Source of the DNA: Vicinamibacterales bacterium
Lineage (GTDB): Bacteria > Acidobacteriota > Vicinamibacteria > Vicinamibacterales > SCN-69-37
DNA: 64,000 nt
Assembly (NCBI GenBank): GCA_038319675.1
Contig: JBBQDM010000008.1
Span: 59,185-123,184, forward strand
Direction of reading: 5' to 3'
Each line of letters begins with the position of its first letter. Within the stretch, counting starts at the first letter, position 1. The position numbers and the translations under genes were made by a program. Positions 44,008 through 64,000 of the stretch are shown here, in pieces. Below the pieces are notes generated by a model. That model did not search any database and was not told where the DNA came from. It was given only the letters and a program-made list of their open reading frames with translations.

Positions 44008-44069
44008 GCCAGGCACCTGCGGCTCGTAGACGACTGATGAAGGAACGGCATGCACGAGGTAAACCAAGA

Positions 44070-49743: not shown

Positions 49744-49980
49744 CAGCTTTTCAATAATTCTCCCCTCGGATACGCGAGTCCTAAAGAGGCAGGGAAGCGA
49801 CACGGGTTCAGCCGCTCCGAATTCGGCCGAGTGCCGATGAGGCGTACTTCTCGGTTGCTCTCGATGGTTGCAACGGGGAAGAGCGAACCCAACATCGACC
49901 TTGATATAACGCTCCATAAGTTGTTTCCTGAGGTTTTCCCCATCGAACAGCAGAGGCACAGGACTAGCCGCAGAAACTGA
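49744..49980 (+). pseudogene. Degraded copy of the ribbon-helix-helix gene found intact at 53888
   Basis: FNNSPLGYASPKEAGKRHGFSRSEF parallels FSISLPPGYAESMEQEGKRYGFNRSEF. It is frame-shifted relative to the intact copy after SEF. Confidence 0.55.
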
Positions 49981-49981
49981 C

Positions 49982-50233
49982 CTACGGCACACTCACTTCA
50001 AGCCCCGCGGCCTCGGCCTGAGCTTTGAAGCGCAGGATGATGTCGCGGTCGGCTGGCAAGGAGAAGAGAGCGTTCCCTGCGTAGCCACGCTCCTGCATCC
50101 ACGCGTCCGCCCTAGCCGTGCTCGGCGAGAACGTGACAGAACTACCTTCTATTGTTTGAAGAATGTCGCCCATGCCTATTTCCAATCGCCCTTCTTCGTT
50201 AAATAGCGGACCCATGTCATCGGGAAAGGTCAA
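49982..50233 (-). CDS. Hypothetical protein (83 aa)
   Basis: Supported by the ORF only. Confidence 0.4.
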   Translation of the reverse strand: MTFPDDMGPLFNEEGRLEIGMGDILQTIEGSSVTFSPSTARADAWMQERGYAGNALFSLPADRDIILRFKAQAEAAGLEVSVP

Positions 50234-50311
50234 CTCAGGACCTACCCGGCTCTGAAAAGCTCAGCGTGACCTCCGCTGAGTTGACATCCCGCTTGGTGCC
50301 AAAATGCTACC

Positions 50312-50542
50312 TTAGCGAGTTGACGCTGTCAGGCACTTCGCGCAGTCGTCGTACCCGTCGGTATGCGCAGCAGTTAGAGACGTGTATGGTTTGTCATTTC
50401 CGGCTTTAATAATCTCGTCAATCTGACAAGTAGTTTTCTCGTTGTCCAGGTCGTGGACTTCCTTCTTGCTCGTCGACTTGTTCGCCAGATATTTTTCTCC
50501 ATTCATGTTTCCCTTGTTTCTTCGTGCCATGCCGCCCTCCAA
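50312..50542 (-). CDS. Small hypothetical, related in pattern to 28042-28251
   Basis: Has the KKEVHDLDNEKTTC...DDCAKC pattern. Confidence 0.45.
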   Translation of the reverse strand: MEGGMARRNKGNMNGEKYLANKSTSKKEVHDLDNEKTTCQIDEIIKAGNDKPYTSLTAAHTDGYDDCAKCLTASTR

Positions 50543-50671
50543 TTTGTAATGGTGCTAGTTGTGGCTGATCGCGACTCAGCGCGCGCGGCTGAAGTCGCGT
50601 GTTTATCCCTATAGTCTTGGTAGTCTGGCAGATTATTGTCGTTTGATCAAACTAAAGTCAACGCGGTTCGT

Positions 50672-50875
50672 CAGTGCGGTACGCGGATGGCCTGGATGTC
50701 CGCAGTCAGTCGGGCACTTCTCGAGCTTAGATCTAAATCATCCTGAACGAAATGCACTGCCACACCTGCATCAATCAATTCTGAAGGACGAGCCCAGTCG
50801 CTCAGGTTACGAGCACTGCGATCGATTTTGTGCACGATGGGCCCGCCGAATGCCCGCGTCTCAGTTCCCCCATCA
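50672..50875 (-). pseudogene. Internal fragment of a serine recombinase gene
   Basis: IVHKIDRSARNLSDWARPSELIDAGVAVHFVQDDLDLSSRSARLTADIQAI closely matches aa ~105-160 of the recombinase at 59309-60667. There is no N- or C-terminal continuation. Confidence 0.75.
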
Positions 50876-51241
50876 CCTCTTGAACCGGAGGTGGTCAGAG
50901 GGTTCGGAAGCCGGACGTTGATCCAGATGCCGGCGGCAAGATGGGCCCGGAACTGACAAAGGCTAGCGCCAAGGCGACCGCGCCTGGCTGCAGAAGTACT
51001 TGGTGAATCCGAAGGCCGAGAACCCGAAGGGAGAAGACCCCGACCACCTGGTCGCATACCTGCTCTCGCTGAAATAGCACCGGGCGAAGTCGAGCCGGAG
51101 CCAGGAGCGAAGCGACTTGTGGCGTCCCCACAGGGAACGGGCGGGCTGCAAACGGAGATTTCACGGTGGGTCGCTGCCCGATAGCAGTTCCGGGAGATTG
51201 GCGTCAGGCCCTACTTGTGCCACTTTGCCGACGACCCAGTC

Positions 51242-51535
51242 TCACCCCTGTCGGTGTGAGCGAGCTGCCGCGACATCGCGGTAGTTCATCAACAAGACGC
51301 CCACGATCCCGATAACAATGAGATAGCCAATAGCTTCTCGGGCCGGATTCTGGAGCGCCCCCTTGAACAACTCAAATGAGGACGCGAATGCCATAATCGC
51401 GGTGCCACGGAGAACCCATGCCCTGGGAGTCCGCTCGCTCGCTTCGCGCAAGAAGAACATAGCCCAAACGGCCAGGGCCACGCTTCCCACCAAGACCATC
51501 CACCACATGAGAATCTGAATTTCCGCTGAACTCAT
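51242..51535 (-). CDS. Small 3-TM membrane protein
   Basis: Three hydrophobic helices in 97 aa. Confidence 0.5.
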   Translation of the reverse strand: MSSAEIQILMWWMVLVGSVALAVWAMFFLREASERTPRAWVLRGTAIMAFASSFELFKGALQNPAREAIGYLIVIGIVGVLLMNYRDVAAARSHRQG

Positions 51536-51634
51536 GGCAACTCTCCCGTCTTCAACCTTCTGCTCCCTGTGTCATATACTGGCAGGGGCCAGCCCGGTAG
51601 GTCCAGGTGGCCCCTGCCGAACGCTCAAACTCTC

Positions 51635-52612
51635 TTATGGCCGGAACGCCAGCACGCGTGGGGCGTCAAAACTCGGCGCCTCAAGTGATGGCGAGATGTT
51701 AAGTTGGTAATTGTTCTGATAGCAATTATACGCTCCGACGGCCAACACCGCCACGCCGACGAGTACGAGAGCATTAAGGCCAGCGAAGCCCAATATGGCT
51801 CTTTTGGTAATCGCCGTTGCGGCTTGGATGTAGGAGTGGGATCCCCAAGCCCCCAGTGCGAAGGCTCCGGCACTCGCCGCGGCCAATCGAATCTCATCGA
51901 CGCAGGGAGGCGCTAGGTCTGGAGAACCACCGTCCGGGACTTGAACCGCTGCGGGCTCGAGCTCGGAACAGTTGTAGTAGTAATAGCAGTCCAAAGCTGC
52001 CTCTTCTAATGCGATTTGTTCCGCTTCAACCATTTCGCCTTCATAGGCGTAATACGCCATAAGAATTTCGGCATCCTCCTTCTCCTGTGGGGTCGCGCAT
52101 TCGGCCCAACCCTCCTCATCCTCACACAGATCGTTAGGAATGATGGGCTCGTCGGCCTTGGATCCGTCCGGTTGCTCATGCAATTCCATTTGCTGCGGAC
52201 CCGATGTCGCTTGGTTTTCAGGTTGAGCTTCAGGCAAGAAGGTTCGACTCATCAGCTTTCCTTCGACGATTGTGCTAACGAACGTCCCACCCGCCGTTGG
52301 CTCTTTCAAGAATTCCACAGGAAGGGCGCGAATCTTGCGATGTCGTTCGGCAGGATCCCTCTCTGAAGCAATGTCGAAGACCTTGAGCCACCTCCTAGCC
52401 CTCTGCCCAGCGCGGTCGGAACGCTGTGCCATCTTTGCGACTCCTTCCTTGACCTTCAGGATCTCCGCTTCGGTTTGGCTCGCGAGGGCCTCGATGCCAC
52501 GGGTCTTGTTTGATGCAACGTTGACTGACGCAGCAAACATGGGCTGCATCCCAACTGTCGCCAAACAGAAAACTGCGAATAAGGCGGCGCTCTTCTTCCA
52601 GAGTAGTTTCAT
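51635..52612 (-). CDS. Secreted/anchored acidic protein, unknown
   Basis: Has the signal peptide MKLLWKKSAALFAVFCLATVG, an acidic Cys-containing middle and C-terminal hydrophobic segments. Confidence 0.5.
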   Translation of the reverse strand: MKLLWKKSAALFAVFCLATVGMQPMFAASVNVASNKTRGIEALASQTEAEILKVKEGVAKMAQRSDRAGQRARRWLKVFDIASERDPAERHRKIRALPVEFLKEPTAGGTFVSTIVEGKLMSRTFLPEAQPENQATSGPQQMELHEQPDGSKADEPIIPNDLCEDEEGWAECATPQEKEDAEILMAYYAYEGEMVEAEQIALEEAALDCYYYYNCSELEPAAVQVPDGGSPDLAPPCVDEIRLAAASAGAFALGAWGSHSYIQAATAITKRAILGFAGLNALVLVGVAVLAVGAYNCYQNNYQLNISPSLEAPSFDAPRVLAFRP

Positions 52613-53068: not shown

Positions 53069-53833
53069 ATGGCTATTACCGTCGATCCCTTCTCTTGCAT
53101 CCCGCTCCATGTTCAGGCGTTTTTTGACGATACGCCGCTCGGTGACGGGACGGGATTCACAGTCCTCAAGGGCGACCAGCGGTATCTGATTACCAACTGG
53201 CACATTGTGTCAGGCAGAGATCCAGTGACGCGGTCCTCAATCTCGAAAGACGCGGGAATCCCGAACCGGTTGGTCGTATGGCTTCACGTGGATGGCAAGT
53301 TCGGGCATTGGAACACCGTGCAGATTCCATTGGTCAACGACAGCAACAATCCGCTTTGGATTGAGCGGGAGCATCAGGCCTCGGGGCACATGGTCGACGT
53401 TGTCGCCCTCCCGGTTCCGACATCGGCCGGAGCCGCTTTTTTTGATCTTGATCTCGGGCTGAAGGATGTTGATGTCTTGATCACGCCCTCCGAGCCTGTG
53501 TCGATCGTGGGTTTTCCACATGGCCGTTCCTCTGCCGGTAAGTTGGCGATATGGAAAACCGGCCATGTTGCCACCGACCTTGAAATCGACTTTGAACAAA
53601 AGCCCGTGTTTCTCATCGACGCCACCACGAAGCCTGGAATGTCTGGCTCGCCCGTGCTAGCCAGAAGACCTGGGAGTCGGCCGACCAGTATCGGGCTGAC
53701 AATCGGTGGAGGAACTGTTACTCGATTCCTAGGTATCTATTCGGGACGGGTCTCTGATCAGCCCGCCGACAAAGATAACTGGAACCTTGGCATGGTGTGG
53801 AAGGTGTCCGCCATCGAAGACTTGTTGCCATAG
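53069..53833 (+). CDS. Trypsin-like (S1/Trypsin_2) serine protease, cytoplasmic-looking
   Basis: Has LITNWHIVSG (His), a mid-protein Asp region and KPGMSGSPV (GxSGxP nucleophile motif). No signal peptide. Confidence 0.7.
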   Translation: MAITVDPFSCIPLHVQAFFDDTPLGDGTGFTVLKGDQRYLITNWHIVSGRDPVTRSSISKDAGIPNRLVVWLHVDGKFGHWNTVQIPLVNDSNNPLWIEREHQASGHMVDVVALPVPTSAGAAFFDLDLGLKDVDVLITPSEPVSIVGFPHGRSSAGKLAIWKTGHVATDLEIDFEQKPVFLIDATTKPGMSGSPVLARRPGSRPTSIGLTIGGGTVTRFLGIYSGRVSDQPADKDNWNLGMVWKVSAIEDLLP

Positions 53834-53887
53834 GCCTTGTACTATTCTTCGAAATCCGTATGCTCTGTGCGTTACACGCCCAGAGTC

Positions 53888-54157
53888 ATGTCCTACGACA
53901 ACTTCTCAATCTCCCTCCCACCTGGGTACGCCGAGTCCATGGAGCAGGAGGGAAAGCGATACGGGTTCAACCGCTCGGAGTTCATCCGGGTGCTTTTCGA
54001 ATCGTACCTCACGGTTACTGCCACGAAGGTCATAGGGGGAAGAGGAAGCCCAACATCGATCCTGCTACCAAACTCCCAGACTTCTTTCCTGAAGTGTTGC
54101 CCCATCGAAAAGCAGAGGCGCAGGAATGGATGCACGAATACCTACGCCTCGTGTTGA
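53888..54157 (+). CDS. Ribbon-helix-helix (CopG/Arc-like) protein; C-terminal half possibly frameshifted at a G5 run
   Basis: FSISLPPGYAESMEQEGKRYGFNRSEFIRVLFESYL is an RHH pattern. After about 54035 a second frame (open to 54282) looks more protein-like. Confidence 0.55.
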   Translation: MSYDNFSISLPPGYAESMEQEGKRYGFNRSEFIRVLFESYLTVTATKVIGGRGSPTSILLPNSQTSFLKCCPIEKQRRRNGCTNTYASC

Positions 54158-54224
54158 GAATCGTAGGGGAGGCAGAGGAACGGAAAAAGCAAACCGGCTC
54201 TGTCGACCGAGACGCTGTCGACCT

Positions 54225-55595
54225 TTACCCTCCCGATGAACCAGCCGCGGAATCGGAATCCCACCGACCGAGGATCGCCTGAATTGAATTGGGATGGTAC
54301 GCTGGAGGGGAGGCAGGTTCTGATTTCTTGGCACGCTCCTTCTCCTGACGCTCTCGTGCCAAACGTTCCTGTTCCTCTCGAGCTTTCTGCAGCTGTTCCT
54401 TCCCGATGACCCACGCCTCTTCGACGACGTCCTCGGGAGTTCGAATACTGTCATTAGAATGGCCGCCAGTTGTGACCCTCGTCTCTGGATGGGTCATTTC
54501 CGAAAAGTCGCTCAACGAGCGGCTTTTCTGTTGGAGCGGTAATTTCGCGTTCAGCGATTTTTGGCACCCCCAAGCCGGGATTCGAACTCGGATACACGTT
54601 GTAGGATCAGGGTTTTTCCTCAGGACGCCGCTCAAAAGCGCTGCGTCGATGCGATCGGTTCGAACGCACACACCCGGACAGCTTCTATTGTGGCAGCGGT
54701 AGTACACGCGGCCCTTTTTCAGTTCTCCCACGACACATCGTCCGCACCGGGTACACAGCAGTTGCCGGCGGAATGTGAAGTGGTGTCGGACTCGTGCTTG
54801 GCGCGTTGATCGCCGCCTTAAGACTTCCTGCACGCGCTCGAACAACCCCTGGCAGATGAGCGGCTCATGAACTCCCGCGAAGACCTCTCCGGTGCGCCGC
54901 AGACGCAATTGGCCGGCGTAGAAGAGGTTGTTCAAGATGCGAGACCACCCGTTGATCGAGACGGGTCTGCCGCTTCGATTTCTGAGTCCGGCCATGTGCA
55001 TTTCCAGCCGCAGCGTGCGGAGTGTGAGGTCACCCGAGGCATAGCGTTCAAAGGCGTGCCGGAGCAGGGGAGCCCGCTCAGGGTCTGAGGTCTTCGGCTT
55101 GGCCCGTCCGTTGTCCAGATATCCGAGAGGGGCCGCCATGGGATAGAGACCCTGACGAAACCGACCCCGCATTCCCTTCATCGTTTCCTCTCGGAGATTA
55201 CGTACAAAGTCCGCCGCAACCACCGCCTGGATGTCGGCGGCCAGGCGCCCGCCGCGGGAATGGAGGTCGAGGCCGTCATGGACGAAGCGGACATCGGCCC
55301 CCAGGTCAATGAGCTCGCCAATCTTGGCCCAGTCGTAGAGATTCCTCGCACCACGGTCGATGCGATGAATGAGGACACCGGCAGCCTGGTGTTTCCGGAG
55401 CAGATCCAGCACTTGTTCGAACACGGGCCGACGTCTGCCGGCAGCGCTCTGCGTTTCGGTGAGCCAGCGGCTGATGCGGAGATTCTGGACGGCCGCGTAC
55501 TGCTCGATGGCCAGCCGTTGTTCTGATAACGAGACGCCCGTAGCGCCTTGGCGAATGGTGGAGACGCGCAGGTAGGCGATATATGAGGATGACAT
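54225..55595 (-). CDS. Large serine recombinase (resolvase domain, recombinase domain, zinc ribbon) with repeat-encoded tail
   Basis: Has YLRVSTIRQ (catalytic Ser), IHRIDRGARN, and CTRCGR...YYRC. The last ~80 codons are shared with two other genes. Confidence 0.85.
   Translation of the reverse strand: MSSSYIAYLRVSTIRQGATGVSLSEQRLAIEQYAAVQNLRISRWLTETQSAAGRRRPVFEQVLDLLRKHQAAGVLIHRIDRGARNLYDWAKIGELIDLGADVRFVHDGLDLHSRGGRLAADIQAVVAADFVRNLREETMKGMRGRFRQGLYPMAAPLGYLDNGRAKPKTSDPERAPLLRHAFERYASGDLTLRTLRLEMHMAGLRNRSGRPVSINGWSRILNNLFYAGQLRLRRTGEVFAGVHEPLICQGLFERVQEVLRRRSTRQARVRHHFTFRRQLLCTRCGRCVVGELKKGRVYYRCHNRSCPGVCVRTDRIDAALLSGVLRKNPDPTTCIRVRIPAWGCQKSLNAKLPLQQKSRSLSDFSEMTHPETRVTTGGHSNDSIRTPEDVVEEAWVIGKEQLQKAREEQERLARERQEKERAKKSEPASPPAYHPNSIQAILGRWDSDSAAGSSGG
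54271..54467 (-). repeat. 197-bp direct repeat, copy 1 of 3
   Basis: Aligns without indels to 59358-59554 and 63563-63759. A 34-nt core CGGGAGTTCGAATACTGTCATTAGAATGGCCGCC is identical in all three. Confidence 0.9.
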
Positions 55596-55816: not shown

Positions 55817-57556
55817 ATGCACCTAGAACAACTATCCATCAATCGGTTTCGTTCGTGCCTGTCAACAACGGTGCACTTCCACCCGGCTCTGACCGTCTTG
55901 GTGGGTGAAAACAATGGCGGGAAGTCAAATATTCTCGACGCCATAAGACTTCTGACAAAACCACTCAATGGCCGACGTGATAGGTATGCTGATGATACCG
56001 ACGTTCGACGCAGCGTAGAGCCCCATACTTTTGTAATAGAAGGAGAGTTCGCCGGACTAAGCCCTACGATTAAGGGACTGTTGATTGCTGCGGTGCCGGA
56101 CCCTGCCTCGGACCGAGCACTAGTCGGTTGCAAGTATGAAGCCCGGTCGGGTACCCGCCCCCGCGGTCGCTTCTCTCACTTGGTCGGTCCGTTGCAAGGC
56201 AGCCCAGAGGAGGGCTCCCTAGAACTGATTCGACACGTCTTCTTGCCCGCGCTTCGAGATGCTAACCAGGCCCTCGGCTCTGCCGGGGCCCTTCGTGTTA
56301 TGGCCCTCCTTCATCAGTTTCTTCCTCAAGAGGAAGAGGCTGACTTCCTGACTGCACTGCGACGCGATACGAGTCCGACGGCAGCCCTGACCAGGATGAA
56401 CTGCGATATTGATGACGCGCTGAAGTCTCTTACCACTGGCGTTCGCAGTCAGTCAGCGGCAGTAGGGTTCGGTGTTGAACGCGTTGAGGATATTGCAAGG
56501 GAACTGTCGTTTCGTCTTGGAGATTCCGATGACGCACTTGGGGACATCCGATCTTCAGGACTTGGATACGCGAACCTGCTCTATATGGCGACTGTCGTTG
56601 TTGAACTCGCCAAGGCACAGGATGCGGACTTGACACTATTCCTTGTCGAAGAGCCTGAAGCTCATCTCCATCCGCAATTGCAGCGACTTGTATTGGATTT
56701 CTTGCTTGAAAAGGCGAACGCCTCTCTTGTGCGCACCGTCGGGGCCGGCGTTCCAGAGGGTCGAATACAGGTTGTTGTAACCACGCATTCGCCCAATTTG
56801 ACTGCGTGGGTATCTCCTGCACATTTGTCGGTTGTGAGGTCTGTGGCCGAAGATCCTCCGCTCGGTGCGAGTACTAAATGTGTGCCCGTCGGACGTCTTG
56901 GCTTGGCCGATGAAGTGCTGAGGAAGATCAGTCGATACTTGGATGTGACACGGTCGGCATTGATGTTTGGGCAACGAACGATGTTCGTCGAGGGCATGGC
57001 TGAGGCTCTGTTGATCCCAATACTGGCTCGAAAGAAGGTGTTCATGCACGATGCCGATTCACTCGCACGGTTCCGGGGCGCCCTTGTTGTGCCGATAGAT
57101 GGAGTAGATTTTCGTCCGTATGTAGAGATCCTACTGACAGCGTTCGAAGGTGTTCGCATCGCCGATCGAGTTGTTGTTGTTACGGATGGCGATCCACATC
57201 TAGATGGCAACAGGAAAGAGGATCTTGAGGACTGGGCGAGGGGTGCGTCGGCATCAGGTGCTCTGGCCGTGTTTACCAACTCTCACACATTGGAACACGA
57301 GTTGTTCCTAGCTGGCAACGAAGCCGTCCTAAAACAGGTGTTCTTGAAGCTCAGGCCCAGATCTGTGCACCGCTGGGAATCTGACATTGAGGCCTTGGGC
57401 GCGGCTGAGCGGCCATTAGCATTTGTCCGTCTACTAAAGTCTTGTGACGTGCGCAAAGGCGACTTTGCGCAAGTTCTGGCGGACTGCGTTGAACGAGACG
57501 AGCCGTTCAATGTTCCAGCGTACCTAACCGACGCCATCAAGGCACTCTCGCGATAA
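55817..57556 (+). CDS. gajA: Gabija GajA (OLD-family ABC-type ATPase plus TOPRIM nuclease)
   Basis: Has LSINRFRS...LVGENNGGKSNILDAI (Walker A), FLVEEPEAHLHPQLQ (Walker B/signature region) and the C-terminal TOPRIM-like MFVEGMAE...VVVTDGD. It is followed by a UvrD-like helicase. Confidence 0.85.
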   Translation: MHLEQLSINRFRSCLSTTVHFHPALTVLVGENNGGKSNILDAIRLLTKPLNGRRDRYADDTDVRRSVEPHTFVIEGEFAGLSPTIKGLLIAAVPDPASDRALVGCKYEARSGTRPRGRFSHLVGPLQGSPEEGSLELIRHVFLPALRDANQALGSAGALRVMALLHQFLPQEEEADFLTALRRDTSPTAALTRMNCDIDDALKSLTTGVRSQSAAVGFGVERVEDIARELSFRLGDSDDALGDIRSSGLGYANLLYMATVVVELAKAQDADLTLFLVEEPEAHLHPQLQRLVLDFLLEKANASLVRTVGAGVPEGRIQVVVTTHSPNLTAWVSPAHLSVVRSVAEDPPLGASTKCVPVGRLGLADEVLRKISRYLDVTRSALMFGQRTMFVEGMAEALLIPILARKKVFMHDADSLARFRGALVVPIDGVDFRPYVEILLTAFEGVRIADRVVVVTDGDPHLDGNRKEDLEDWARGASASGALAVFTNSHTLEHELFLAGNEAVLKQVFLKLRPRSVHRWESDIEALGAAERPLAFVRLLKSCDVRKGDFAQVLADCVERDEPFNVPAYLTDAIKALSR

Positions 57557-59304
57557 TGGAACTGACTCCTGATCAGATTGCATTCGTCAGGCACCCTGGA
57601 GAGGTGTTCTTGGAAGCTTGTCCGGGCGCAGGAAAAACGTGGGCGATCTTGGCGAGAACTGTAGCAGTCTCGCAGGCCCTGCCTCCTCGACATGGTGTGG
57701 CGCTTCTGTCGTTTACAAACAAGGCCGTCGACGAGCTCGTGGCTAGAGTACCGTCTGAGTGTCAGCAGGACCTCGTCTTTCCCGGATTTATCGGAACGGT
57801 AGATTCGTTCGTCAGGTCATTTTTGTTTGCGCCCTACCACAACAGCCATCCAGGAAGAGTTCCGCAAGTTGTAGACAGCTGGGACGCTGTCGATGACGTC
57901 GCTGTGCGTCTGTCTGCGCCTGACAATTTCGGACAGGGCGCCAGTCTCGAGGCGTTCAATTCACTTTCTGGCCGAGTCTCAATCGCTCAGGTCGCACCCA
58001 CAATGCGAAACCACGTCGAGGCTCATCGTGAGCAGTATGAGGCTGCGGCGCGGAGGCTGAGAACCCGGCTTCATCGTTCTAACAGGTACAGCGCATCTGA
58101 TGTGCGGGCAATTGCGCTTTCGAGATTGGAGACCGAAGATGGCCCGTCCGCCCTGGGCGAGGCCCTTGCCGCACGATTCAAGCACGTTATCGTTGATGAA
58201 GCGCAGGACTGCAACCGTCAAGATCTCCTTTTGTTCGCGTGGCTTCGTCGACATGGCGTCTTGGTGACGATGGTGGGCGATCTCGATCAGTCGATTTTTG
58301 ATTTCCGGGACAGCTCCCCAAGTGAAATCAGAGCGTTCGCAGCTACCTACGCCGCTGGTGATCGTCAGCGGCTTACTGGCAACTTTAGAAGTGCCCCCGC
58401 AATCTGTTCGCTAGCAGCTTCACTGAGAAGCATCAAAGTGCCAGACCGGGCGGTAGGAGTGTACAGCACCTCTGACACACCAGTATTCCTATACATATAT
58501 CAACTGCGCCCAAGCATTGCAGTTGGACGGCGCTTTCTCGCACATGCTGAGTCCCTTGGAATTGATCGGCGCAATGCGATTGTATTGGCGCACAAGGAGT
58601 CAGTTGCCAGGCAGGTTGCGGGCGGCTTAGCAGCCGCCTCTGGGAATTCCAGATTGGAGCGCTTTGCACTGGCTGTTGCTGCAATTCATGGTGCCAGCTC
58701 GGCTTCTGAAAAGACGCGGGCCATCTCTGCAGTCGAGCATTTGGTGCTTCAGTTCCAGGGACGGATTGAGAGCGGCGAGTCGGTTCGCTCAGCCACAAGT
58801 CGTTTGGGTCTAAATGCTCGACTGTTGCGCCGGCAAGCGTTTGATTGGGTTTTTAGGATGCAGGCGACGTGTGACACCGAGGAGGCTTCGCTGGAGTCGT
58901 GGCTTAGAAGTGCTCAGGCTGGCCTAGAAGGACTTCGTGTGGAGTCGCCAGAGCAGACTAGCGCCCGCCGGTGGCTAACGCGCCCGAACCATGACAAGTG
59001 GAGCCGCGTCCTCATTACGTCTGCACGAGAACAGTCGCTGGCTCACTCGACGGTACACTCCGCGAAAGGAGGAGAATACGATGCGGTATGCGTGGTTATT
59101 CCTCCTGATGATCAGTCAGAACGAACGACGCGTCTCTGCAGAGCTTGGAGGGACGATCTGGACGATGAAGCGAGGCGTGTCCTCTATGTAGCCGCGACCC
59201 GGGCCCGGCGCGTTGTTGTAGTCGCAGTTCCCCATTCATTTCGCGCGGCTTGTGAGACCGCCCTAAGGACTTTCAACGTCCCGTACGCACTTCTTGATCC
59301 GTGA
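57556..59304 (+). CDS. gajB: Gabija GajB (UvrD/PcrA-like superfamily 1 helicase)
   Basis: Has ACPGAGKTWAI (motif I), VIVDEAQDCN (motif II), GNFRS and VHSAKGGEYD. Its start overlaps the gajA stop. Confidence 0.85.
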   Translation: MELTPDQIAFVRHPGEVFLEACPGAGKTWAILARTVAVSQALPPRHGVALLSFTNKAVDELVARVPSECQQDLVFPGFIGTVDSFVRSFLFAPYHNSHPGRVPQVVDSWDAVDDVAVRLSAPDNFGQGASLEAFNSLSGRVSIAQVAPTMRNHVEAHREQYEAAARRLRTRLHRSNRYSASDVRAIALSRLETEDGPSALGEALAARFKHVIVDEAQDCNRQDLLLFAWLRRHGVLVTMVGDLDQSIFDFRDSSPSEIRAFAATYAAGDRQRLTGNFRSAPAICSLAASLRSIKVPDRAVGVYSTSDTPVFLYIYQLRPSIAVGRRFLAHAESLGIDRRNAIVLAHKESVARQVAGGLAAASGNSRLERFALAVAAIHGASSASEKTRAISAVEHLVLQFQGRIESGESVRSATSRLGLNARLLRRQAFDWVFRMQATCDTEEASLESWLRSAQAGLEGLRVESPEQTSARRWLTRPNHDKWSRVLITSAREQSLAHSTVHSAKGGEYDAVCVVIPPDDQSERTTRLCRAWRDDLDDEARRVLYVAATRARRVVVVAVPHSFRAACETALRTFNVPYALLDP

Positions 59305-59308
59305 GGTT

Positions 59309-60667
59309 TTACGGCGCCACGGTCGAGTCTGCGGCAGAATCCGGATCCAATTGACCGAGGATCGCCTGAATCGAATTGGGATGGTACGCTGGAGGGGAGG
59401 CAGGTTCGGGTTTCTCGGCTCGTCGTTTCTGCTCGCGGTCTCGTATCAGACGTTCCTGTTCCTCTCGAGCCTTCTGCAGTCGTTCCTTCCCGATGACCCA
59501 GGCCTCCTCAGCCACCTCTTCGGGAGTTCGAATACTGTCATTAGAATGGCCGCCAGTTGCAACTTGTGCCACCTTGACTGTGGATAGTCGGGAATATGGC
59601 GTGGTTGAGCGACCTTTTCTGTGCACAGCGGTGTCGCATTGCGCCACCTTTTCCTCAAGACCCCCAGCGGGATTCGAACTTTCCGCGTCCATACTCAGGA
59701 GCAAAGCCAATACTTCTTCTCGAACACAGAGCCGGCATGAAGAGCCATGGCAGCGGTAATAGATGTGGCCCTTCTGGCATTCTCCGACGAGGGACCGACC
59801 GCATCGTGAACAAGACAGCGCAGCAGTGAAACGAAACGTGGATGCGCGTCGCTTGTGCCTGCCACGTCGAGCTCGCAGCAGCTTCCGAACGTCTTCAAAC
59901 AAGGCCTCCGATACTAGAGGCTCATGGTTGCCAGCGAACTCTTCGCCGGTGTGACGTAGACGCGTCACTCCTGTGTAGAAGCGATTGTTCAGCATGCGGG
60001 ACAGCGTTGCCACGAGCAAGACGCGCCCCTGTCGATTACGAAATCCATCCTTGGCGGCGCGGCCGGCCAAAGTCTTCAGCGTGTATCCCCCGGAGACGTA
60101 CATCTCAAAAAGCTTTCGGACGTATGCCGCCCGCTCTGGATCGAGACGCTTCACCTTGCCGGTTCCGCAATCGAGATAGCCAAGTGGGGCAGAGAATGGA
60201 TACAGGCCTTGGGCGAGCCGGCCCCGAAGCCCTTTACAGGTTTCTTCTCGAAGGTTGCGGATGTAATCCGCGGCCAGAATGGCTTGAATGTCTGCGGTCA
60301 ATCTGCCGCTCCGGGATTGCAGGTCCAGATCGTCTTGAACGAAATGTACCGCCACGCCGGAGTCGATCAATTCCGAGAGGCGAGCCCAATCGCTCAAGTT
60401 CCGGGCACTGCGATCAATCTTGTGCACGATGAGACCTGCCGAGTGCCCACGTTTTAGATCTTCCATAACTTCATGGAAGACCGGTCTGTCCCGATCCGCC
60501 GCCGTGTGCATTTCGGTGCGCCAGGACTGAATGAATAAATTGCGTGTCTCAGCGAATCTTTCGATGAGCCGCCGTTGTTCTGAAGGGGAAGTGCCTTGGG
60601 TGCCTTGGCGCTGGGTCGAGACGCGCAGGTAAGCAACGAATCCTTTCTTGTGCGAAATGGACTTCAT
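59309..60667 (-). CDS. Large serine recombinase (paralog) with repeat-encoded tail
   Basis: Has YLRVSTQRQ, VHKIDRSARN and CSRCGR...YYRC. The start at MKSISHKKG avoids overlap with the divergent gene. Confidence 0.85.
   Translation of the reverse strand: MKSISHKKGFVAYLRVSTQRQGTQGTSPSEQRRLIERFAETRNLFIQSWRTEMHTAADRDRPVFHEVMEDLKRGHSAGLIVHKIDRSARNLSDWARLSELIDSGVAVHFVQDDLDLQSRSGRLTADIQAILAADYIRNLREETCKGLRGRLAQGLYPFSAPLGYLDCGTGKVKRLDPERAAYVRKLFEMYVSGGYTLKTLAGRAAKDGFRNRQGRVLLVATLSRMLNNRFYTGVTRLRHTGEEFAGNHEPLVSEALFEDVRKLLRARRGRHKRRASTFRFTAALSCSRCGRSLVGECQKGHIYYRCHGSSCRLCVREEVLALLLSMDAESSNPAGGLEEKVAQCDTAVHRKGRSTTPYSRLSTVKVAQVATGGHSNDSIRTPEEVAEEAWVIGKERLQKAREEQERLIRDREQKRRAEKPEPASPPAYHPNSIQAILGQLDPDSAADSTVAP
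59358..59554 (-). repeat. 197-bp direct repeat, copy 2 of 3
   Basis: See copy 1. Confidence 0.9.
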
Positions 60668-60784
60668 GTTTGTTGGGGTTAGCTGGTAGAAGAAACGTTG
60701 CTGCCGCTTTTCAGTCAGAGGTCCTGTACAATTCCAGTTGAGCCTTGATGATTCCGTAGTTGAGCGTAGAATTGAAGGCGCGCG

Positions 60785-61957
60785 ATGCCAAAACAACTAT
60801 CGAACGAAACAACGAAGGAGGTTGCGACGCAGTCGCCGGTTCTTCCAGCTCGGGACGTTCCAGACAGAACCCGTCTATTCTTGTTTGTTCGTGCCGGTGG
60901 TCGATGCGAGTTCGACGGATGTAATAAGAATCTCCTCGAACACCACCTGACGCTCACCGCGGGCAATTTTGCGGAGATGGCTCACGTTGTGGCGTTCAGC
61001 GAACGTGGCCCACGTGGTGATGATCCACAGCGACCAGACGACATCAATGACATCTCGAATCTGATGCTCCTGTGTCCTCAGTGTCACAAGTTGATTGATG
61101 ACAATCCCGAGAACTTCAGTCGAGAGACACTCGACGCATATAAGAAAGATCATGAGGCAAGGATTGAGCAGCTGACGGCCTTAGGACCTGATCGAAAAAC
61201 TGCCGTCCTGATTTTCAAGGCTCTGATTGGAGGACAGGCGATCGCCATGCCGCTGGATCAGATTTTTGAGGCTACTGCTCCTCGATGGCCTGCATCTAAA
61301 CTTCCAATGACAATCGACCTTACTGGTATTACTGGTGGAGGTTCGGCATTCTATGAGACAGCGTGCGAGACAATCCAGCGTGGTATCGATCGACTCCTGG
61401 GGCCTGAAGGAGAGGGTGTCCGGAACGGGCACGTGTCGGTGTTTGCCCTCGCCCCGATGCCTTTACTAATGTGTTTGGGACGTCAACTTTCGAACAAAGT
61501 CCCCACCGACGTCTTTCAGCGGCACCGTGAGGATGAGCGGTGGACGTGGAGACAGGACGGGCCGCCGATAAATTATATGGTCCAGCGCGTTCGTGATGGC
61601 CGACCAGATAAAGTAACGTTGATTCTTTCATTGAGCGGAAGTATTCCTGTGGCGAGCCTGCCGGCCGATAGTGCTGATGCGACAATCTACGAAATTGCGC
61701 TTGATGGCATGGTTCCGGCACCGACGTTCCTTCGCCGCCGTCAGGATCTTGAGGCGTTTCGGCCGGTCTATCAGGAAGCTCTGGCCGTCATCCTCAAGGA
61801 ACATGGGTTATTGGCGAGTATCGATCTGTTTCCTGCAGTTCCTGCACCGATTGCAGTTCTCTGCGGCAGGGAGCTCTTGCCAAAGGTGCATCCGAAACTG
61901 AGGGTGTTCGATTACGACAGGGCGCAGGGCGGGTTTGTTTTCACTTTAGAGGTTTAA
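60785..61957 (+). CDS. cap5: CBASS effector, HNH endonuclease fused to SAVED domain (Cap5-like)
   Basis: The N-terminal HNH is GGRCEFDGC...AHVVAF...NLMLLCPQCHKLID. The C-terminal ~270 aa have a SAVED-like pattern. It is adjacent to the CD-NTase. Confidence 0.75.
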   Translation: MPKQLSNETTKEVATQSPVLPARDVPDRTRLFLFVRAGGRCEFDGCNKNLLEHHLTLTAGNFAEMAHVVAFSERGPRGDDPQRPDDINDISNLMLLCPQCHKLIDDNPENFSRETLDAYKKDHEARIEQLTALGPDRKTAVLIFKALIGGQAIAMPLDQIFEATAPRWPASKLPMTIDLTGITGGGSAFYETACETIQRGIDRLLGPEGEGVRNGHVSVFALAPMPLLMCLGRQLSNKVPTDVFQRHREDERWTWRQDGPPINYMVQRVRDGRPDKVTLILSLSGSIPVASLPADSADATIYEIALDGMVPAPTFLRRRQDLEAFRPVYQEALAVILKEHGLLASIDLFPAVPAPIAVLCGRELLPKVHPKLRVFDYDRAQGGFVFTLEV

Positions 61958-61975
61958 GAAACACACAAAACATAT

Positions 61976-62863
61976 ATGACAGATACCGAATATCTCACAC
62001 AGATCCTCGCAGATCAGAATCTCGGCTCAGATAGCGCTGAGTTGAAGGCATTGATTGAACATCGCGACGAAGTTGAGGAGTTGCTCCGCTCTTCATTTCC
62101 AGACAGTTCGCCAACAATTAGATACGGCGGCTCACGTGCTAAAGGCACGTTGATCAAAGAGTCTTACGACCTTGATATCGTTTGCTACTTCGAAAACGAT
62201 GACGTCTCGGCTGGCGAGACTCTTGAAGACATTTTCACTAATGTCGAAAAGGCCTTGGCCACGAAATATCAGGTCCAGAGAAAGCGATCTGCGTTAAGAC
62301 TGAGAGATTCAACCAGTGCAGTAGACTTTCACGTTGACGTCGTGCCGGGGCGATTCACGGACGATACGAAGACCGATTGTTATCTGTGGCAAGCAGAAGG
62401 AACGAAGCAGCGCCTTAAGACGAATCTTGATGTTCACATTGCACATGTGAGGGACAGCGGAGTTGTTCCGGCGATTCGGATTCTGAAGCTCTGGAAAGCC
62501 CGCAGAGCTCTGCCGGTCAAGCAGTTTGCGTTCGAGCTCATGATCATCGCCCTTTTGGGGAATTCAAAAACACTCTCGCTACCGGAACAGGTCAAGAAAG
62601 TGTGGACTGAAATCAGCGACCGTTCTGAAGCCGTCGCAATTGAAGATCCTGCGAATCCAACTGGCAACGACCTTTCAGATATCCTCGCGGGTGTTTGGTG
62701 GCATTTGTCAGCCACTGCCAGCGATGCCCTAGCAACACTGGAGGCTCAGGGCTGGAGTGCGATTTTCGGTGACATCGAAGAAGAGGTGACTGAATCAGTG
62801 TTGCATTCAGCTGCCGCGACCTCGTTTCCATCAAAGCCACACGGCTCCGCACTCAATGGCTGA
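61976..62863 (+). CDS. CD-NTase / SMODS-type Pol-beta nucleotidyltransferase
   Basis: Has GGSRAKGTLIKESYDLDIV (GS...DxD) and the third acidic residue in FHVDVVPG. Confidence 0.75.
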   Translation: MTDTEYLTQILADQNLGSDSAELKALIEHRDEVEELLRSSFPDSSPTIRYGGSRAKGTLIKESYDLDIVCYFENDDVSAGETLEDIFTNVEKALATKYQVQRKRSALRLRDSTSAVDFHVDVVPGRFTDDTKTDCYLWQAEGTKQRLKTNLDVHIAHVRDSGVVPAIRILKLWKARRALPVKQFAFELMIIALLGNSKTLSLPEQVKKVWTEISDRSEAVAIEDPANPTGNDLSDILAGVWWHLSATASDALATLEAQGWSAIFGDIEEEVTESVLHSAAATSFPSKPHGSALNG

Positions 62864-63491
62864 TGAATCCTCCCTGCGAGAGCTATTGCAGGGAATCCGA
62901 GAGCGGTACCCAGAGCTTGGATTCGCGAGAGATGAGCAGGGGTCGATGTTGCGGGGCTCGTTTCCGGTTTTGTATGGCTCTCGTGTGCTGAGTCGCTTCT
63001 TGATTGAAATGAGATTCCCCGAAGGCGTCGAGAACTTGCCTGCAATCAAGGAGATCGGTGGCCGCATTCCTCGAAGAGAGGGCCTGCGACATACCAATCC
63101 GGATGGCACCATCTGCGCTGGGGTTCCGGAAGTGTGGCTATTGAAAGGGAAGTCGTCACTTCTTGATTACCTGGATGGGCCAGTGCAAAGCTACTTTCTC
63201 GGGCAATTGTTCGTCGAACGAGGATTGCAATGGCCTCACGGGGAATGGGATCATGGGTGTGATGGGTACTACCAAGCGTACGGTGAGATGCTTGAGGTGA
63301 CGGTCCCGGAGACGATCAAAGGATACTTGGAACAAATTGCGAAGCCTGAAGGTCCAGACGAAAACGCACTTTGTCCTTGCCTTTCTGGGCAAGTGGTTCG
63401 AGATTGTCATCTTGAAAAAATCAATCAACTTCGCTCGAAAATCCCCATTTCGATCGCTGCGAGTGCTTTGAGTCGACTGAGGTGGTGTTAG
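62856..63491 (+). CDS. Prokaryotic E2-like ubiquitin-conjugating domain protein (E2-only Cap2 analogue) with C-terminal Cys cluster
   Basis: LRHTNPDGTICAGVPE resembles the E2 HPN...G.IC catalytic loop. The C-terminal CPCLSGQVVRDCH is SEC-C-like. It overlaps the CD-NTase stop. Confidence 0.65.
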   Translation: MADESSLRELLQGIRERYPELGFARDEQGSMLRGSFPVLYGSRVLSRFLIEMRFPEGVENLPAIKEIGGRIPRREGLRHTNPDGTICAGVPEVWLLKGKSSLLDYLDGPVQSYFLGQLFVERGLQWPHGEWDHGCDGYYQAYGEMLEVTVPETIKGYLEQIAKPEGPDENALCPCLSGQVVRDCHLEKINQLRSKIPISIAASALSRLRWC

Positions 63492-63513
63492 AGGACCGAC
63501 CTACAACAACGCT

Positions 63514-63993
63514 CTAACCATCGAAAGCCGAGCTACCGGACGAACCAGAATCCCACCGCCCAAGGATCGCCTGAATCGAATTGGGATGGTACGCTGGAGC
63601 GGAGGCAGGTTCGGATTTCTTGGCGCGCTCCTTTTCTTGGCGCTCTCGTATCAAACGTTCCTGCTCCTCTTGAGCCTTCTGCAGTCGTTCCTTCCCCATA
63701 GCCCAGGCTTCCTCGGCGACCGCTTCGGGAGTTCGAATACTGTCATTAGAATGGCCGCCCCCAGAGATGAAGGCGCGTTTCGCGATGATGGAAAGAGGAA
63801 AAGACGGCTCAACAACAACGTCTTTTCCGGTGGCGATCCGGTTCGAACTCAGGCGCAGGACCATTTCGCGCTTCGAAACGGAATCTGCCATTTCATAGCC
63901 CTGCTGAGCCACAAAAGCCAGTTCGAACCTGTTCGTGAGGAAAGTCGCCAATTCCACGTTGGGATCGACCTGGGAAGCTAGAGAATCTTCCAA
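63514..63993 (-). CDS. Gene of unknown function carrying the same repeat-encoded C-terminal tail; probably continues beyond the window
   Basis: The last ~80 aa (GGGHSNDSIRTPE...PAYHPNSIQAILGRW...) match the recombinase tails. The upstream part is unrelated to recombinases, and no stop lies upstream before the window end. Confidence 0.6.
   Translation of the reverse strand: MEDSLASQVDPNVELATFLTNRFELAFVAQQGYEMADSVSKREMVLRLSSNRIATGKDVVVEPSFPLSIIAKRAFISGGGHSNDSIRTPEAVAEEAWAMGKERLQKAQEEQERLIRERQEKERAKKSEPASAPAYHPNSIQAILGRWDSGSSGSSAFDG
63563..63759 (-). repeat. 197-bp direct repeat, copy 3 of 3
   Basis: See copy 1. Confidence 0.9.
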
Positions 63994-64000
63994 GGACCGT

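What the first reader, a model, noticed from the sequence alone, without database searches (positions are those of the whole stretch)
49744..64000. Tandem serine-recombinase cassettes, each carrying a different defence system, stacked at the 3' end of one gene
Seen:
- Three indel-free 197-bp direct repeats (54271, 59358, 63563) delimit units of the form [recombinase on minus][cargo on plus].
- Unit 1 carries Gabija, with a 5087-bp period.
- Unit 2 carries HNH-SAVED, CD-NTase and E2, with a 4205-bp period.
- The third repeat lies in the 3' end of a non-recombinase gene at the window edge.
- To the left lie a 200-bp recombinase fragment (50672-50875) and a degraded copy (49744-49980) of the RHH gene that, in intact form, sits just left of repeat 1. 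These suggest older, decayed units whose cargo includes a trypsin-like protease.

Inference: repeated site-specific integration into the same att site accretes single-system defence cassettes, giving an integron-like but serine-recombinase-driven hotspot.
Basis: partly seen in the sequence, partly recalled or inferred. Interest (0 to 1): 0.75.

Follow-up and report, generated by a model that had tools for sequence, protein, structure and literature searches.

The report
Defence cassettes docked in recombinase gene
Small DNA cassettes, each carrying a different anti-phage defence system plus a spare copy of a recombinase's tail, are stacked at the 3' end of a large serine recombinase gene; the same layout occurs downstream of about a quarter of related recombinase genes in several phyla, so it looks like a serine-recombinase counterpart of the integron.

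Summary
The three direct repeats are real: 229 nt at 54244, 59331 and 63536, 84-86% identical and gap-free. The cargo calls are correct: Gabija in unit 1, and an HNH-SAVED/CD-NTase/E2 CBASS in unit 2. One statement is wrong. The gene at the window edge is a full-length 557-aa large serine recombinase (LSR, P0005), not a non-recombinase gene. The repeat encodes a ~78-aa C-terminal tail shared by this LSR and by two short LSR paralogues (rec1, rec2) that lack the coiled-coil.

Tails show dN/dS of 0.12-0.30 and dS of 0.4-0.8, while the recombinase bodies are saturated, so tails have been exchanged. The first 11 tail codons have no synonymous change (P=0.0006).

In a survey of 75 family LSR genes, 22 have downstream, direct copies of their own 3' end bounding small recombinase-less cassettes. 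Cargo includes OLD, SoFic, PDC-M48B, HerA and PDC-S06. Near-identical Parvibaculum-type loci carry 0, 1 or 3 cassettes, with breakpoints within the first 8 nt of the repeat, at a junction motif conserved across the family (GGTGNCC...YTCGAAC).

The integron-like reading is therefore largely supported. The docking site is the recombinase's own coding 3' end. I found no published description.

The parts
63514..64000 (-). 3' 486 nt of the head recombinase T (P0005, 557 aa, full-length large serine recombinase). Its body runs off the window.
   Evidence: 100% identity over 161 aa to P0005. P0005 has Resolvase+Recombinase+Zn_ribbon_recom. The AlphaFold model shows the coiled-coil, a beta-hairpin, a disordered junction and a tail helix.
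63536..63764 (-). Repeat 3 = tail copy 3, now the C-terminus of T. The junction lies at about 63760-63766 (GG|GGCGGCC).
60785..63491 (+). Cassette 2 cargo, a CBASS: HNH-SAVED effector 60785-61957, CD-NTase 61976-62863, E2 62856-63491.
   Evidence: PADLOC Effector 1e-140, Cyclase 2.2e-66, E2 1e-45; Pfam SAVED 1.5e-36
59309..60667 (-). rec2 (P0004, 452 aa), a short LSR paralogue: catalytic domain, recombinase domain and Zn ribbon, then an unstructured linker (aa 331-378), then tail copy 2. It has no coiled-coil.
   Evidence: Pfam; alignment gap of ~160 aa against T and the family; AlphaFold model; body under purifying selection against the L001 homologue, omega 0.10
59331..59559 (-). Repeat 2 = tail copy 2. 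It is preceded (59555-59600) by the rec2-type left arm ATCCACAGTCAAGGTG..., which is also found at three junctions in metagenome contig L001.
55817..59304 (+). Cassette 1 cargo, Gabija: GajA 55817-57556 and GajB 57556-59304.
   Evidence: PADLOC GajA 7.5e-227, GajB 2.3e-155
54225..55595 (-). rec1 (456 aa), a second short LSR paralogue (55% aa identity to rec2) with the same architecture. Its linker DNA is ~90% conserved with contig L003, but the reading frame is not kept.
54244..54472 (-). Repeat 1 = tail copy 1, the distal-most copy. On the model it is the oldest displaced tail.
53069..54157 (+). Genes distal to tail 1: a trypsin-like protease (53069-53833) and a weak RHH protein (53837-54157). 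Possible older cargo.
   Evidence: Trypsin_2 4.9e-10; PDC-S45 2.1e-19 (partial); RHH_1 0.0051, below the Pfam cutoff
50686..50891 (-). Recombinase fragment (aa ~61-129 of a rec2-like gene). Remnant of an older unit.
   Evidence: tblastn 89% aa identity, E=1.4e-25. Synonymous sites are saturated.
49762..49977 (+). Degraded copy of the RHH gene.
   Evidence: tblastn 39% aa identity, E=1.6e-7; 67-nt DNA repeat D4
43962..45086 (+). PDC-S21 (DUF4917, SIR2-like) candidate defence gene. Cargo of the oldest recognisable unit.
   Evidence: PADLOC 2e-121; Pfam DUF4917 2.7e-79
43193..43282 (-). Short recombinase fragment (aa ~104-136) marking the probable left end of the island. Housekeeping-type genes lie to its left.
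   Evidence: tblastn E~1e-8; flanking annotation

Best explanation
Positions 54.2-64 kb are a cassette array docked at the 3' end of a full-length large serine recombinase gene (T, P0005).

The docking site lies in the codons for a disordered linker (around residue 478), between the recombinase's C-terminal beta-hairpin and a ~78-aa helical tail.

Each cassette has three parts:
- At the end nearest T, its own copy of the tail-coding segment.
- A complete defence system on the opposite strand.
- At the far end, a non-coding or loosely coding 'left arm'.

Insertion of a circular cassette at the junction gives T a new tail and pushes the old tail downstream, where it abuts the cassette's left arm. 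Repeated insertion at the head builds the array: CBASS newest, then Gabija, then decayed older units down to ~43 kb.

In this lineage each cassette also encodes a short LSR paralogue without the coiled-coil (rec1, rec2). Its ORF reads through the left arm into the displaced tail.

Shown:
- The repeats are coding tails.
- T is an LSR.
- Tails are younger than the recombinase bodies.
- There is DNA-level constraint at the tail start.
- The same architecture is widespread in the family.
- Cassettes are present or absent with breakpoints at the repeat edge.
- The junction motif is conserved.
- Defence cargo is recurrent.

Inferred:
- The LSR catalyses the exchange.
- There is a circular intermediate.
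- Insertion occurs at the head.
- What rec1 and rec2 do. My guess is that they are cassette-borne helpers or excision enzymes that share the tail as an interaction module with T.
For: Repeats and coding:
- Repeats confirmed. The tail is read in frame in all three genes.
- T is P0005, an LSR.
- The structure models place the junction in a segment with pLDDT below 50, before a confident 40-residue helix. rec2 lacks the coiled-coil and hairpin.

Selection:
- Tails have dN/dS 0.12-0.30 and dS 0.37-0.78. Bodies have saturated dS (rec1/rec2 pS 0.76; rec2/L001 omega 0.10). So tails were exchanged between lineages.
- The first 11 tail codons show no synonymous change in 5 copies, P=0.0006.

Related contigs:
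- Tails occur without a recombinase body, bounding PDC-S06 and helicase cassettes, in L001. L001 also has a tail-less terminal site.
- The same rec1-type and rec2-type junctions are followed by different cargo in L003 and L001.
- In L002 the T orthologue is followed convergently by a defence-type HerA.

Family survey:
- 22 of 75 LSR genes have extra copies of their own 3' end. All copies are downstream and direct. None of the cassettes contains a recombinase.
- L031 and L033 have 0 cassettes, L036 has 1, and L006, L007 and L035 have 3. Flanks are 99.1-99.8% identical and the breakpoints fall on the repeats. The crossover lies before the first SNP, at +8.
- The junction motif GGTGNCC...YTCGAAC is conserved in more than 15 lineages. 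Inverted boxes in L042 and L005 place the dyad centre ~4 nt inside the repeat.

Cargo elsewhere: OLD, SoFic, PDC-M48B.
Against: - There is no direct evidence of excised circles or of catalysis.
- Dyad symmetry at the window's own junctions is not significant (p 0.27-0.94).
- The window-type tail is extremely rare: 5 hits in 1.84 billion representative proteins, one of them a low-complexity chance match. So presence/absence polymorphism is shown for sister lineages of the family, not for this exact array.
- Only two independent deletion or insertion events could be mapped to the repeat edge.
- By inspection, the tails look mosaic, so homologous exchange or gene conversion also acts on them.
- rec1 and rec2 lack the coiled-coil. 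From general knowledge of A118, Bxb1 and phiC31 integrases, canonical serine integrases need it for attP x attB synapsis. Their role is unexplained.
- Units left of 54.2 kb have no repeat boundaries.
Confidence: 0.7

Rival explanations
1. Tandem accretion of complete LSR-bearing integrative elements into one another's att site, followed by decay, as in the ICE/CIME accretion model. On this view the 'cassettes' are deletion remnants, and later gains and losses occur by RecA-dependent homologous recombination between the 170-230-nt tail repeats. It is not a dedicated cassette-capture system.
For: - In the window each unit still has a recombinase gene, and older units have recombinase fragments.
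- The rec1 linker has weak local similarity to the 3' body of T (z=4.8 over 36 nt).
- L006 left arms align loosely to the LSR 'GKxVxVE' coding region.
- The tails look mosaic.
- Repeats of this length and identity are adequate substrates for homologous recombination.
Against: - None of the cassettes in 22 arrays contains any detectable LSR remnant. Many are only 0.2-1.5 kb.
- Left arms of different cassettes in one array resemble each other, not the LSR body.
- The mapped crossovers lie at the extreme edge of the repeat, not in its longest identical runs.
- Homology starts at the same motif in more than 15 lineages.
- rec1, rec2 and the L001 rec share the same truncated architecture yet evolve under purifying selection. 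That fits poorly with random decay.
Confidence: 0.2
2. The repeat is simply a conserved C-terminal domain of three paralogous recombinase genes that happen to be neighbours. It plays no role in mobility.
For: - The repeat is coding and under purifying selection.
- A homologous tail with a conserved Arg-Thr exists throughout the family.
Against: - Tail dS of 0.4-0.8 against saturated bodies means the tails are far younger than the genes they sit on.
- Tails occur detached from any recombinase body in L001, L005, L006, L042 and other loci.
- Cassette presence/absence polymorphism falls at the repeats.
- There is nucleotide-level invariance at synonymous sites.
Confidence: 0.03
3. The selected function is tail switching. 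Silent downstream tail copies would be a reservoir of alternative C-termini that change the head recombinase's regulation or specificity, in the manner of a shufflon. The cargo genes would be hitch-hikers.
For: The empty-site loci L031 and L033 encode the same LSR with a markedly different tail: c4 is only 68% identical to c1 beyond the first 68 nt. So exchange does change the protein.
Against: - All copies are in direct orientation, so exchange deletes the intervening DNA irreversibly unless it is re-inserted.
- Window-type tails are under purifying, not diversifying, selection.
- The cargo consists of complete, intact defence systems.
Confidence: 0.07

Closest known systems
Integrons (IntI tyrosine recombinase, attI, attC cassettes), including sedentary chromosomal integrons whose cassettes encode defence systems (bioRxiv 10.1101/2024.07.02.601686)
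   Same: - One recombinase gene heads a polar array of small, mostly recombinase-less cassettes.
- Each cassette carries its own recombination site.
- The array varies by whole cassettes.
- Anti-phage defence is frequent cargo.
- There appear to be two site classes: the head junction and the cassette left arm.
   Different: - The recombinase is a large serine recombinase, not a tyrosine recombinase.
- The docking site lies inside the recombinase's own coding sequence, and every cassette carries a replacement C-terminal tail.
- The repeat units are ~170-250 nt and partly coding.
- Cargo is often convergent to the recombinase gene, and at least here it has its own divergent promoter region rather than relying on a Pc promoter.
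- Whether recombination uses folded single strands, as attC does, is unknown.
SCC/SCCmec and related cassette chromosomes (CcrAB/CcrC large serine recombinases at the 3' end of rlmH), with tandem defence cassettes (PMC11470126)
   Same: - Large serine recombinases.
- Tandem cassettes at the 3' end of one gene.
- Cassettes enriched in defence systems.
- Some cassettes lack a recombinase and are mobilised in trans.
   Different: - The SCC target is a housekeeping gene (rlmH), the att repeats are short (~15-20 bp), and the cassettes are 17-50 kb.
- Here the target is the recombinase gene itself, the repeats are 170-230 nt of coding tail, and the cassettes are 0.2-5 kb.
- The hosts are Acidobacteriota, Verrucomicrobiota, Alphaproteobacteria and Patescibacteria.
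- Orthology to Ccr was not tested.
Tandem genomic islands at tRNA/tmRNA genes, e.g. ssrA-specific islands with serine recombinases in Dehalococcoides (PMC3146451), and the ICE/CIME accretion-mobilisation model (reviewed in PMC5704250)
   Same: - Each insertion restores the 3' end of the target gene with an element-borne copy and displaces the old 3' end.
- This produces arrays of direct repeats with decayed, recombinase-less members.
   Different: - The target is the recombinase's own ORF, not a host RNA gene.
- The typical cassettes show no trace of an integration module.
Integration-dependent immunity of mycobacteriophages, where attP lies inside the repressor gene and integration changes the protein's C-terminus. 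This comparison rests on my own knowledge; the only related paper seen here is the review PMC9262239, listed and not read.
   Same: A recombination site inside a coding region, so that recombination swaps the C-terminus of the encoded protein.
   Different: There the C-terminus is lost as a regulatory switch in a tyrosine-integrase phage. Here the tail is replaced like for like, and the gene involved is the serine recombinase.

Membership tests
Large serine recombinase (serine integrase) - gene T / P0005 | N-terminal resolvase catalytic domain with the nucleophile serine motif (YxRVST) | tested here: met
   Pfam PF00239 precomputed for P0005. 'AYTRVSTQKQ' is in the sequence. Y7, R9, V10, S11 and T12 are invariant in the 40-member alignment.
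Large serine recombinase (serine integrase) - gene T / P0005 | Recombinase domain, zinc-ribbon domain and an embedded coiled-coil motif | tested here: met
   PF07508 and PF13408. The four Cys are conserved. The AlphaFold model has long helices at 329-376 and 382-404, followed by a beta-hairpin at 447-461.
Large serine recombinase - rec1 and rec2 | Catalytic domain, recombinase domain and zinc ribbon | tested here: met
   Resolvase 1.6e-23 and 3.8e-23; Recombinase 1.2e-10 and 4.6e-15. Zn_ribbon_recom scores 6.5e-4, below cutoff, and for rec1 only. The Cys ligands align.
Large serine recombinase - rec1 and rec2 | Coiled-coil motif and C-terminal part of the zinc-ribbon domain | tested here: not met
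   There is a ~160-aa gap relative to T, P0006, P0007 and the family. In the rec2 model, residues 331-378 have pLDDT below 50 and there is no coiled-coil or hairpin.
Integron | IntI-type tyrosine recombinase | tested here: not met
   The head gene and the cassette-borne genes are serine recombinases.
Integron | Polar array of cassettes next to the recombinase gene, each ending in its own recombination site, varying by whole cassettes | tested here: met
   All extra copies are downstream and direct. 0-, 1- and 3-cassette states occur in near-identical loci.
Integron | attC sites that fold as imperfect hairpins and recombine as single strands | tested here: inconclusive
   Some left arms have strong hairpins (rec1 z=-3.6, L006 c3 z=-5.3). 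The rec2-type arms have none. The recombination chemistry cannot be tested here.
SCC-type cassette chromosome | Insertion at the 3' end of rlmH (orfX), mediated by Ccr recombinases | tested here: not met
   The target gene is an LSR. No rlmH lies at the junction. Ccr orthology was not tested.
Gabija | Adjacent GajA (ATPase + OLD-type TOPRIM) and GajB (UvrD-like helicase) | tested here: met
   GajA 7.5e-227 covering 1-578 of 579 aa. GajB 2.3e-155 covering 2-578 of 582 aa. Pfam AAA_15, OLD-like_TOPRIM and UvrD-helicase.
CBASS (with E2-only accessory) | CD-NTase, a nucleotide-sensing effector and an E2-like accessory gene in one operon | tested here: met
   Cyclase 2.2e-66, SAVED-HNH effector 1e-140, E2 1e-45. 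The three genes are contiguous on one strand.

The most novel reading that the evidence does not exclude
This LSR family defines a previously unrecognised, widespread gene-capture platform, a 'serine integron'.
- The full-length recombinase inserts and excises small cassettes at a site inside its own coding 3' end.
- Each cassette brings a replacement tail, so the enzyme stays intact.
- The arrays act as exchangeable stores of anti-phage defence systems across Acidobacteriota, Verrucomicrobiota, Alphaproteobacteria, Patescibacteria and other phyla.
- The window shows a sub-type in which cassettes additionally carry coiled-coil-less recombinase paralogues that share the tail.
Probability: 0.5. 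Interest if true: 0.9.

Novelty: new variant of a known kind. Interest (0 to 1): 0.8.

Why it matters
Integrons are the textbook example of a recombinase-headed cassette store, and all known ones use a tyrosine recombinase.

A serine-recombinase analogue would be an independent invention of gene capture. It has a neat way to target a coding sequence without destroying it, because each cassette brings the missing tail.

It would matter in three ways:
- It would explain how single defence systems move as 1-5-kb units in poorly studied environmental phyla.
- It would give a simple sequence signature for mining new defence genes: downstream direct copies of the LSR 3' end, starting at GGTGNCC...TCGAAC.
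- It could supply serine integrases with natural, short, repeatedly reusable landing sites for genome engineering.

The short recombinases without a coiled-coil pose a mechanistic question about how serine integrases control synapsis.

Tried and rejected
- Exact 35-nt core in genome contigs: no match.
- T fragment in genome contigs and tail profile in metagenome contigs: no confirmed relatives.
- Source contig beyond the window: not on record, so the DNA to the right of T could not be read.
- Tail profile against 5.8 billion and 1.84 billion proteins: only P0001-P0004 and P0124, plus one low-complexity chance hit.
- Dyad symmetry at the seven window-type junctions: not above shuffled controls.
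- Homology of the rec1/rec2 linkers to the 3' body of T: only T-rec1 reaches z=4.8 over 36 nt, one of 21 pairs tested, so it is suggestive at best.
- tRNA-like reading of the GTTCGAATCC motif in the linkers: ARAGORN finds no tRNA or tmRNA in the window.
- More tails or att sites left of 54.2 kb: none found by nhmmer.
- L004 (P0007) and L002: no tail repeats in the DNA available.
- L060: a perfect 4993-nt tandem duplication of a two-cassette block could be a real duplication or an assembly artefact, so it was not used as evidence.
- Six literature searches found no description of LSR-headed cassette arrays. The library holds open-access papers only, so a prior report cannot be excluded.


Full report
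**1. Observation**

The three direct repeats exist. They lie at 54244-54472, 59331-59559 (86% identical) and 63536-63764 (84%), in register and without gaps, with spacings of 5087 and 4205 nt. A 35-nt block, TCGGGAGTTCGAATACTGTCATTAGAATGGCCGCC, is invariant in all three. It occurs nowhere else in the window, and none are expected by chance.

The cargo calls are right.
- Unit 1 is Gabija: GajA 7.5e-227 and GajB 2.3e-155.
- Unit 2 is a CBASS: HNH-SAVED effector 1e-140, CD-NTase 2.2e-66 and E2 1e-45.
- All five proteins match their profiles end to end.

The recombinase fragment (50686-50891), the degraded RHH copy (49762-49977) and the trypsin-like protease are also there.

**2. What the repeat is**

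On the minus strand the repeat is coding. It encodes the last ~78 residues (GGHSNDSIRTPE..AEEAW.IGKE.LQKAREEQERL...AYHPNSIQAILG...) of rec1 (54225-55595), of rec2 (59309-60667) and of the ORF that runs off the window at 63514.

That third ORF is not a non-recombinase gene. It is 100% identical over 161 aa to the C-terminus of P0005. P0005 is a 557-aa protein with Resolvase, Recombinase and Zn-ribbon domains, encoded on the same 162-kb source contig. I call it T.

T is a full-length large serine recombinase (LSR). Its AlphaFold model (pLDDT 82) shows the following:
- a coiled-coil (helices 329-376 and 382-404);
- a beta-hairpin (447-461);
- a disordered stretch (471-485) that contains the repeat boundary;
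- a confident 40-residue tail helix (486-525).

rec1 and rec2 are 55% identical to each other and 53-55% identical to T. They have the catalytic, recombinase and zinc-ribbon parts. They lack the ~160 residues of coiled-coil and hairpin that T and ~500-530-aa family members have. In their place is a 45-60-aa unstructured linker that leads into the tail.

**3. Tails are exchanged, and the junction is constrained as DNA**

- The five window-type tails (three here, two in metagenome contig L001) have dN/dS of 0.12-0.30. The tail is therefore a functional peptide.
- Their dS is only 0.37-0.78, while the recombinase bodies are saturated (rec1/rec2 pS 0.76; rec2 versus the L001 recombinase, omega 0.10). 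The tails are much younger than the genes they sit on.
- The first 11 tail codons carry no synonymous change in any copy. The probability is 0.0006 as an initial run and 0.02 for a run anywhere. This points to a nucleotide-level constraint at the boundary.
- Upstream of the boundary there are three 'left-arm' lineages, each conserved across independent samples:
  - T-type (T, L002);
  - rec1-type (rec1, L003; ~90% identical);
  - rec2-type (rec2 and three junctions in L001).
- In the rec1 and rec2 types the arm DNA is conserved but the reading frame is not. There are 1-nt indels in L003, and a stop codon plus indels in L001. These arms behave as a cis element and not as coding sequence.

**4. 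Relatives with the same tail**

The tail is very rare. Profile searches of 5.8 billion and 1.84 billion proteins find only four other carriers.

- L001 (11.6 kb) reads as follows: rec2-like recombinase, tail, a PDC-S06 cassette, tail with no recombinase, a helicase/nuclease cassette, then a tail-less site that keeps only the left arm.
- L003 has a rec1-type junction followed by different cargo.
- L002 holds a 75% identical orthologue of T with a diverged tail. A defence-type HerA follows it convergently (4e-85). Genes resembling a mobile-element backbone, including a TrwB-like ATPase, lie upstream.

So tails bound cassettes even when no recombinase is present, and the same junction types carry different cargo in different samples.

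**5. The architecture is general in the family**

Ordinary family members have a different tail sequence, but it aligns with the window's and shares a nearly invariant Arg (R485 of T).

I fetched 80 genome loci that encode family LSRs and asked whether each LSR's last 170 nt recurs in the locus.
- It does in 22 of 75 genes (19 of the 71 newly surveyed).
- Every extra copy is downstream and in direct orientation, 0.2-8 kb away.
- Hosts include Acidobacteriota, Verrucomicrobiota, Alphaproteobacteria and Hydrogenedentota.
- No cassette between copies contains any recombinase homologue.
- Cargo includes an OLD-family nuclease (L006), SoFic (L021, 2e-115), PDC-M48B (L060), an IS1595 transposase, an M23 peptidase and many unknowns.

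**6.

One LSR (P0089, seen on 44 or more contigs) sits in flanks that are 99.1-99.8% identical in several genomes. The array differs between them.

| Loci | Array |
|---|---|
| L006, L007, L035 | LSR, c1, cas1, c2, cas2 (OLD), c3, cas3, c4, flank |
| L036 | LSR, c3-like tail, cas3, c4 |
| L031, L033 | LSR body joined directly to the c4 tail and the flank |

The states are nested, and the breakpoints coincide with the repeats.

In L031 and L033 the sequence switches from LSR body to c4 type before the first diagnostic SNP, 8 nt into the repeat. L036 behaves the same way. Longer identical runs of 16-20 nt, which homologous recombination would favour, lie further inside the repeat.

Across more than 15 lineages, homology between the LSR copy and its downstream copies begins abruptly at a (G)GTGNCC motif. 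This lies 20-24 nt upstream of a YTCGAAC(T)TT box. The window's version is GG|GGCGGCC...ATTCGAACTCC.

In L042 and L005 the cassette's left arm carries the inverted box. This places a dyad centre ~4 nt inside the repeat, consistent with the mapped crossover interval.

**7. Mechanism proposed**

A cassette is a circle of [tail copy - cargo - left arm]. The LSR recombines the left-arm/tail site of the circle with the body/tail junction of its own gene.
- The head gene receives the cassette's tail and stays intact.
- The old tail is displaced downstream, next to the cassette's left arm.
- Repeating this at the head builds a polar array. The reverse reaction excises cassettes.

For the window this reads as follows, from the head outward:
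- T;
- [tail 3 - CBASS - rec2];
- [tail 2 - Gabija - rec1];
- tail 1;
- older material whose boundaries have decayed: protease and RHH, a recombinase fragment at 50.7 kb, a pseudo-RHH, PDC-S21 and a recombinase fragment at 43.2 kb. Housekeeping-type genes lie to the left of ~43.1 kb.

Catalysis by the LSR, the circular intermediate and head insertion are all inferred.

The role of rec1 and rec2 is open. They are under purifying selection, keep the catalytic serine motif and share the tail helix with T. They lack the coiled-coil. From general knowledge of A118, Bxb1 and phiC31 integrases, canonical serine integrases need it for attP x attB synapsis. They may be cassette-borne excision enzymes, or partners of T that interact through the tail.

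**8. Rivals**

- Accretion of whole LSR elements followed by decay, with homologous recombination between tails doing the later shuffling. This fits the recombinase genes and fragments in this window and the mosaic look of the tails. It fits poorly with the small recombinase-less cassettes, the shared cassette-type left arms, the edge-located crossovers and the conserved junction (confidence ~0.2).
- 'Just a conserved domain'. This is excluded by the dS contrast, by the detached tails and by the polymorphism.
- Tail switching as the selected function. This is possible but unlikely, given the direct orientation and the purifying selection.

**9. Comparison and novelty**

In function this is closest to an integron. 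The match covers the recombinase-headed polar array, cassettes that each carry their own site, whole-cassette variation and defence cargo. It fails the defining feature of a tyrosine IntI.

It shares the enzyme class and the tandem defence cassettes with SCC/SCCmec (PMC11470126). The difference is that it targets the recombinase's own ORF rather than rlmH, and it uses long coding repeats.

It shares the logic of restoring the target's 3' end with tRNA and ssrA islands (PMC3146451).

Six full-text searches found no description of such arrays. The library holds open-access papers only.

I rate it a new variant of a known kind (site-specific cassette arrays). There is a substantial chance that it deserves recognition as a distinct platform.

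**10. Verdict**

One factual error concerns the third gene.
- Interest is high.

Noticed in passing
window 43193-45086: A short recombinase fragment (43193-43282, minus strand) is followed on the plus strand by two small ORFs and a PDC-S21/DUF4917 SIR2-like gene (2e-121). It probably marks the left end of the island.
   Followed up: partly
window 50686-50847: This recombinase fragment is 89% identical to rec2 at the protein level, yet nearly every synonymous site differs (pS 0.88 over 54 codons). That implies long divergence under strong purifying selection, followed by recent truncation.
   Followed up: partly
window 22779-25814 (minus strand): A 1011-aa protein with a TrwB/TraG-type coupling-protein ATPase domain and weak STAND-NTPase hits sits among housekeeping-type genes. 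It could belong to another mobile element or defence locus.
   Followed up: no
window 45368-47734 (minus strand): A 788-aa polytopic membrane protein with a C-terminal UbiA prenyltransferase domain lies inside the old part of the island, next to secreted proteins of unknown function (48229-49308, 51635-52612).
   Followed up: no
window 54500-54540 (minus strand); L003 130-160; L006 12625-12655, 15885-15915, 17262-17292: Cassette left arms of two unrelated tail families carry a similar terminator-like hairpin: AAAAG(C/A)GCGCTC...GAGCG..CTTTT (rec1 z=-3.6, L006 c3 z=-5.3). It aligns with the LSR coding region for 'GKxVxVE'. T itself has a perfect 10-bp stem there. The rec2-type arms lack it.
   Followed up: partly
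window 54590-54620 and 59665-59690 (minus strand); L001 ~545-560: The rec1 and rec2 linkers contain GTTCGAATCCCG(C/G), which resembles a tRNA T-loop and also the tail's own TTCGAACTCCCG box. No tRNA is predicted in the window. L006 cassette arms likewise keep a direct CTCGAACTT box ~88 nt upstream of the junction.
   Followed up: partly
L060 11432-21461: There is a perfect (100%) 4993-nt tandem duplication of a two-cassette block, including its tails. It is either a very recent duplication or re-insertion of cassettes, or an assembly artefact.
   Followed up: partly
L002 2228-4272 and L006 7647-9982: The T orthologue and P0089 share upstream synteny: a small ORF just before the LSR, then a divergent ~440-aa protein of unknown function and an HTH protein. 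This may be a conserved backbone or partner module of the platform.
   Followed up: no
L031 / L033 11429-11581 compared with L006 11429-11581: The same LSR (99.8% identical body) carries a markedly different C-terminal ~35 residues, depending on which tail copy is fused to it. Cassette turnover therefore changes the recombinase protein itself.
   Followed up: partly
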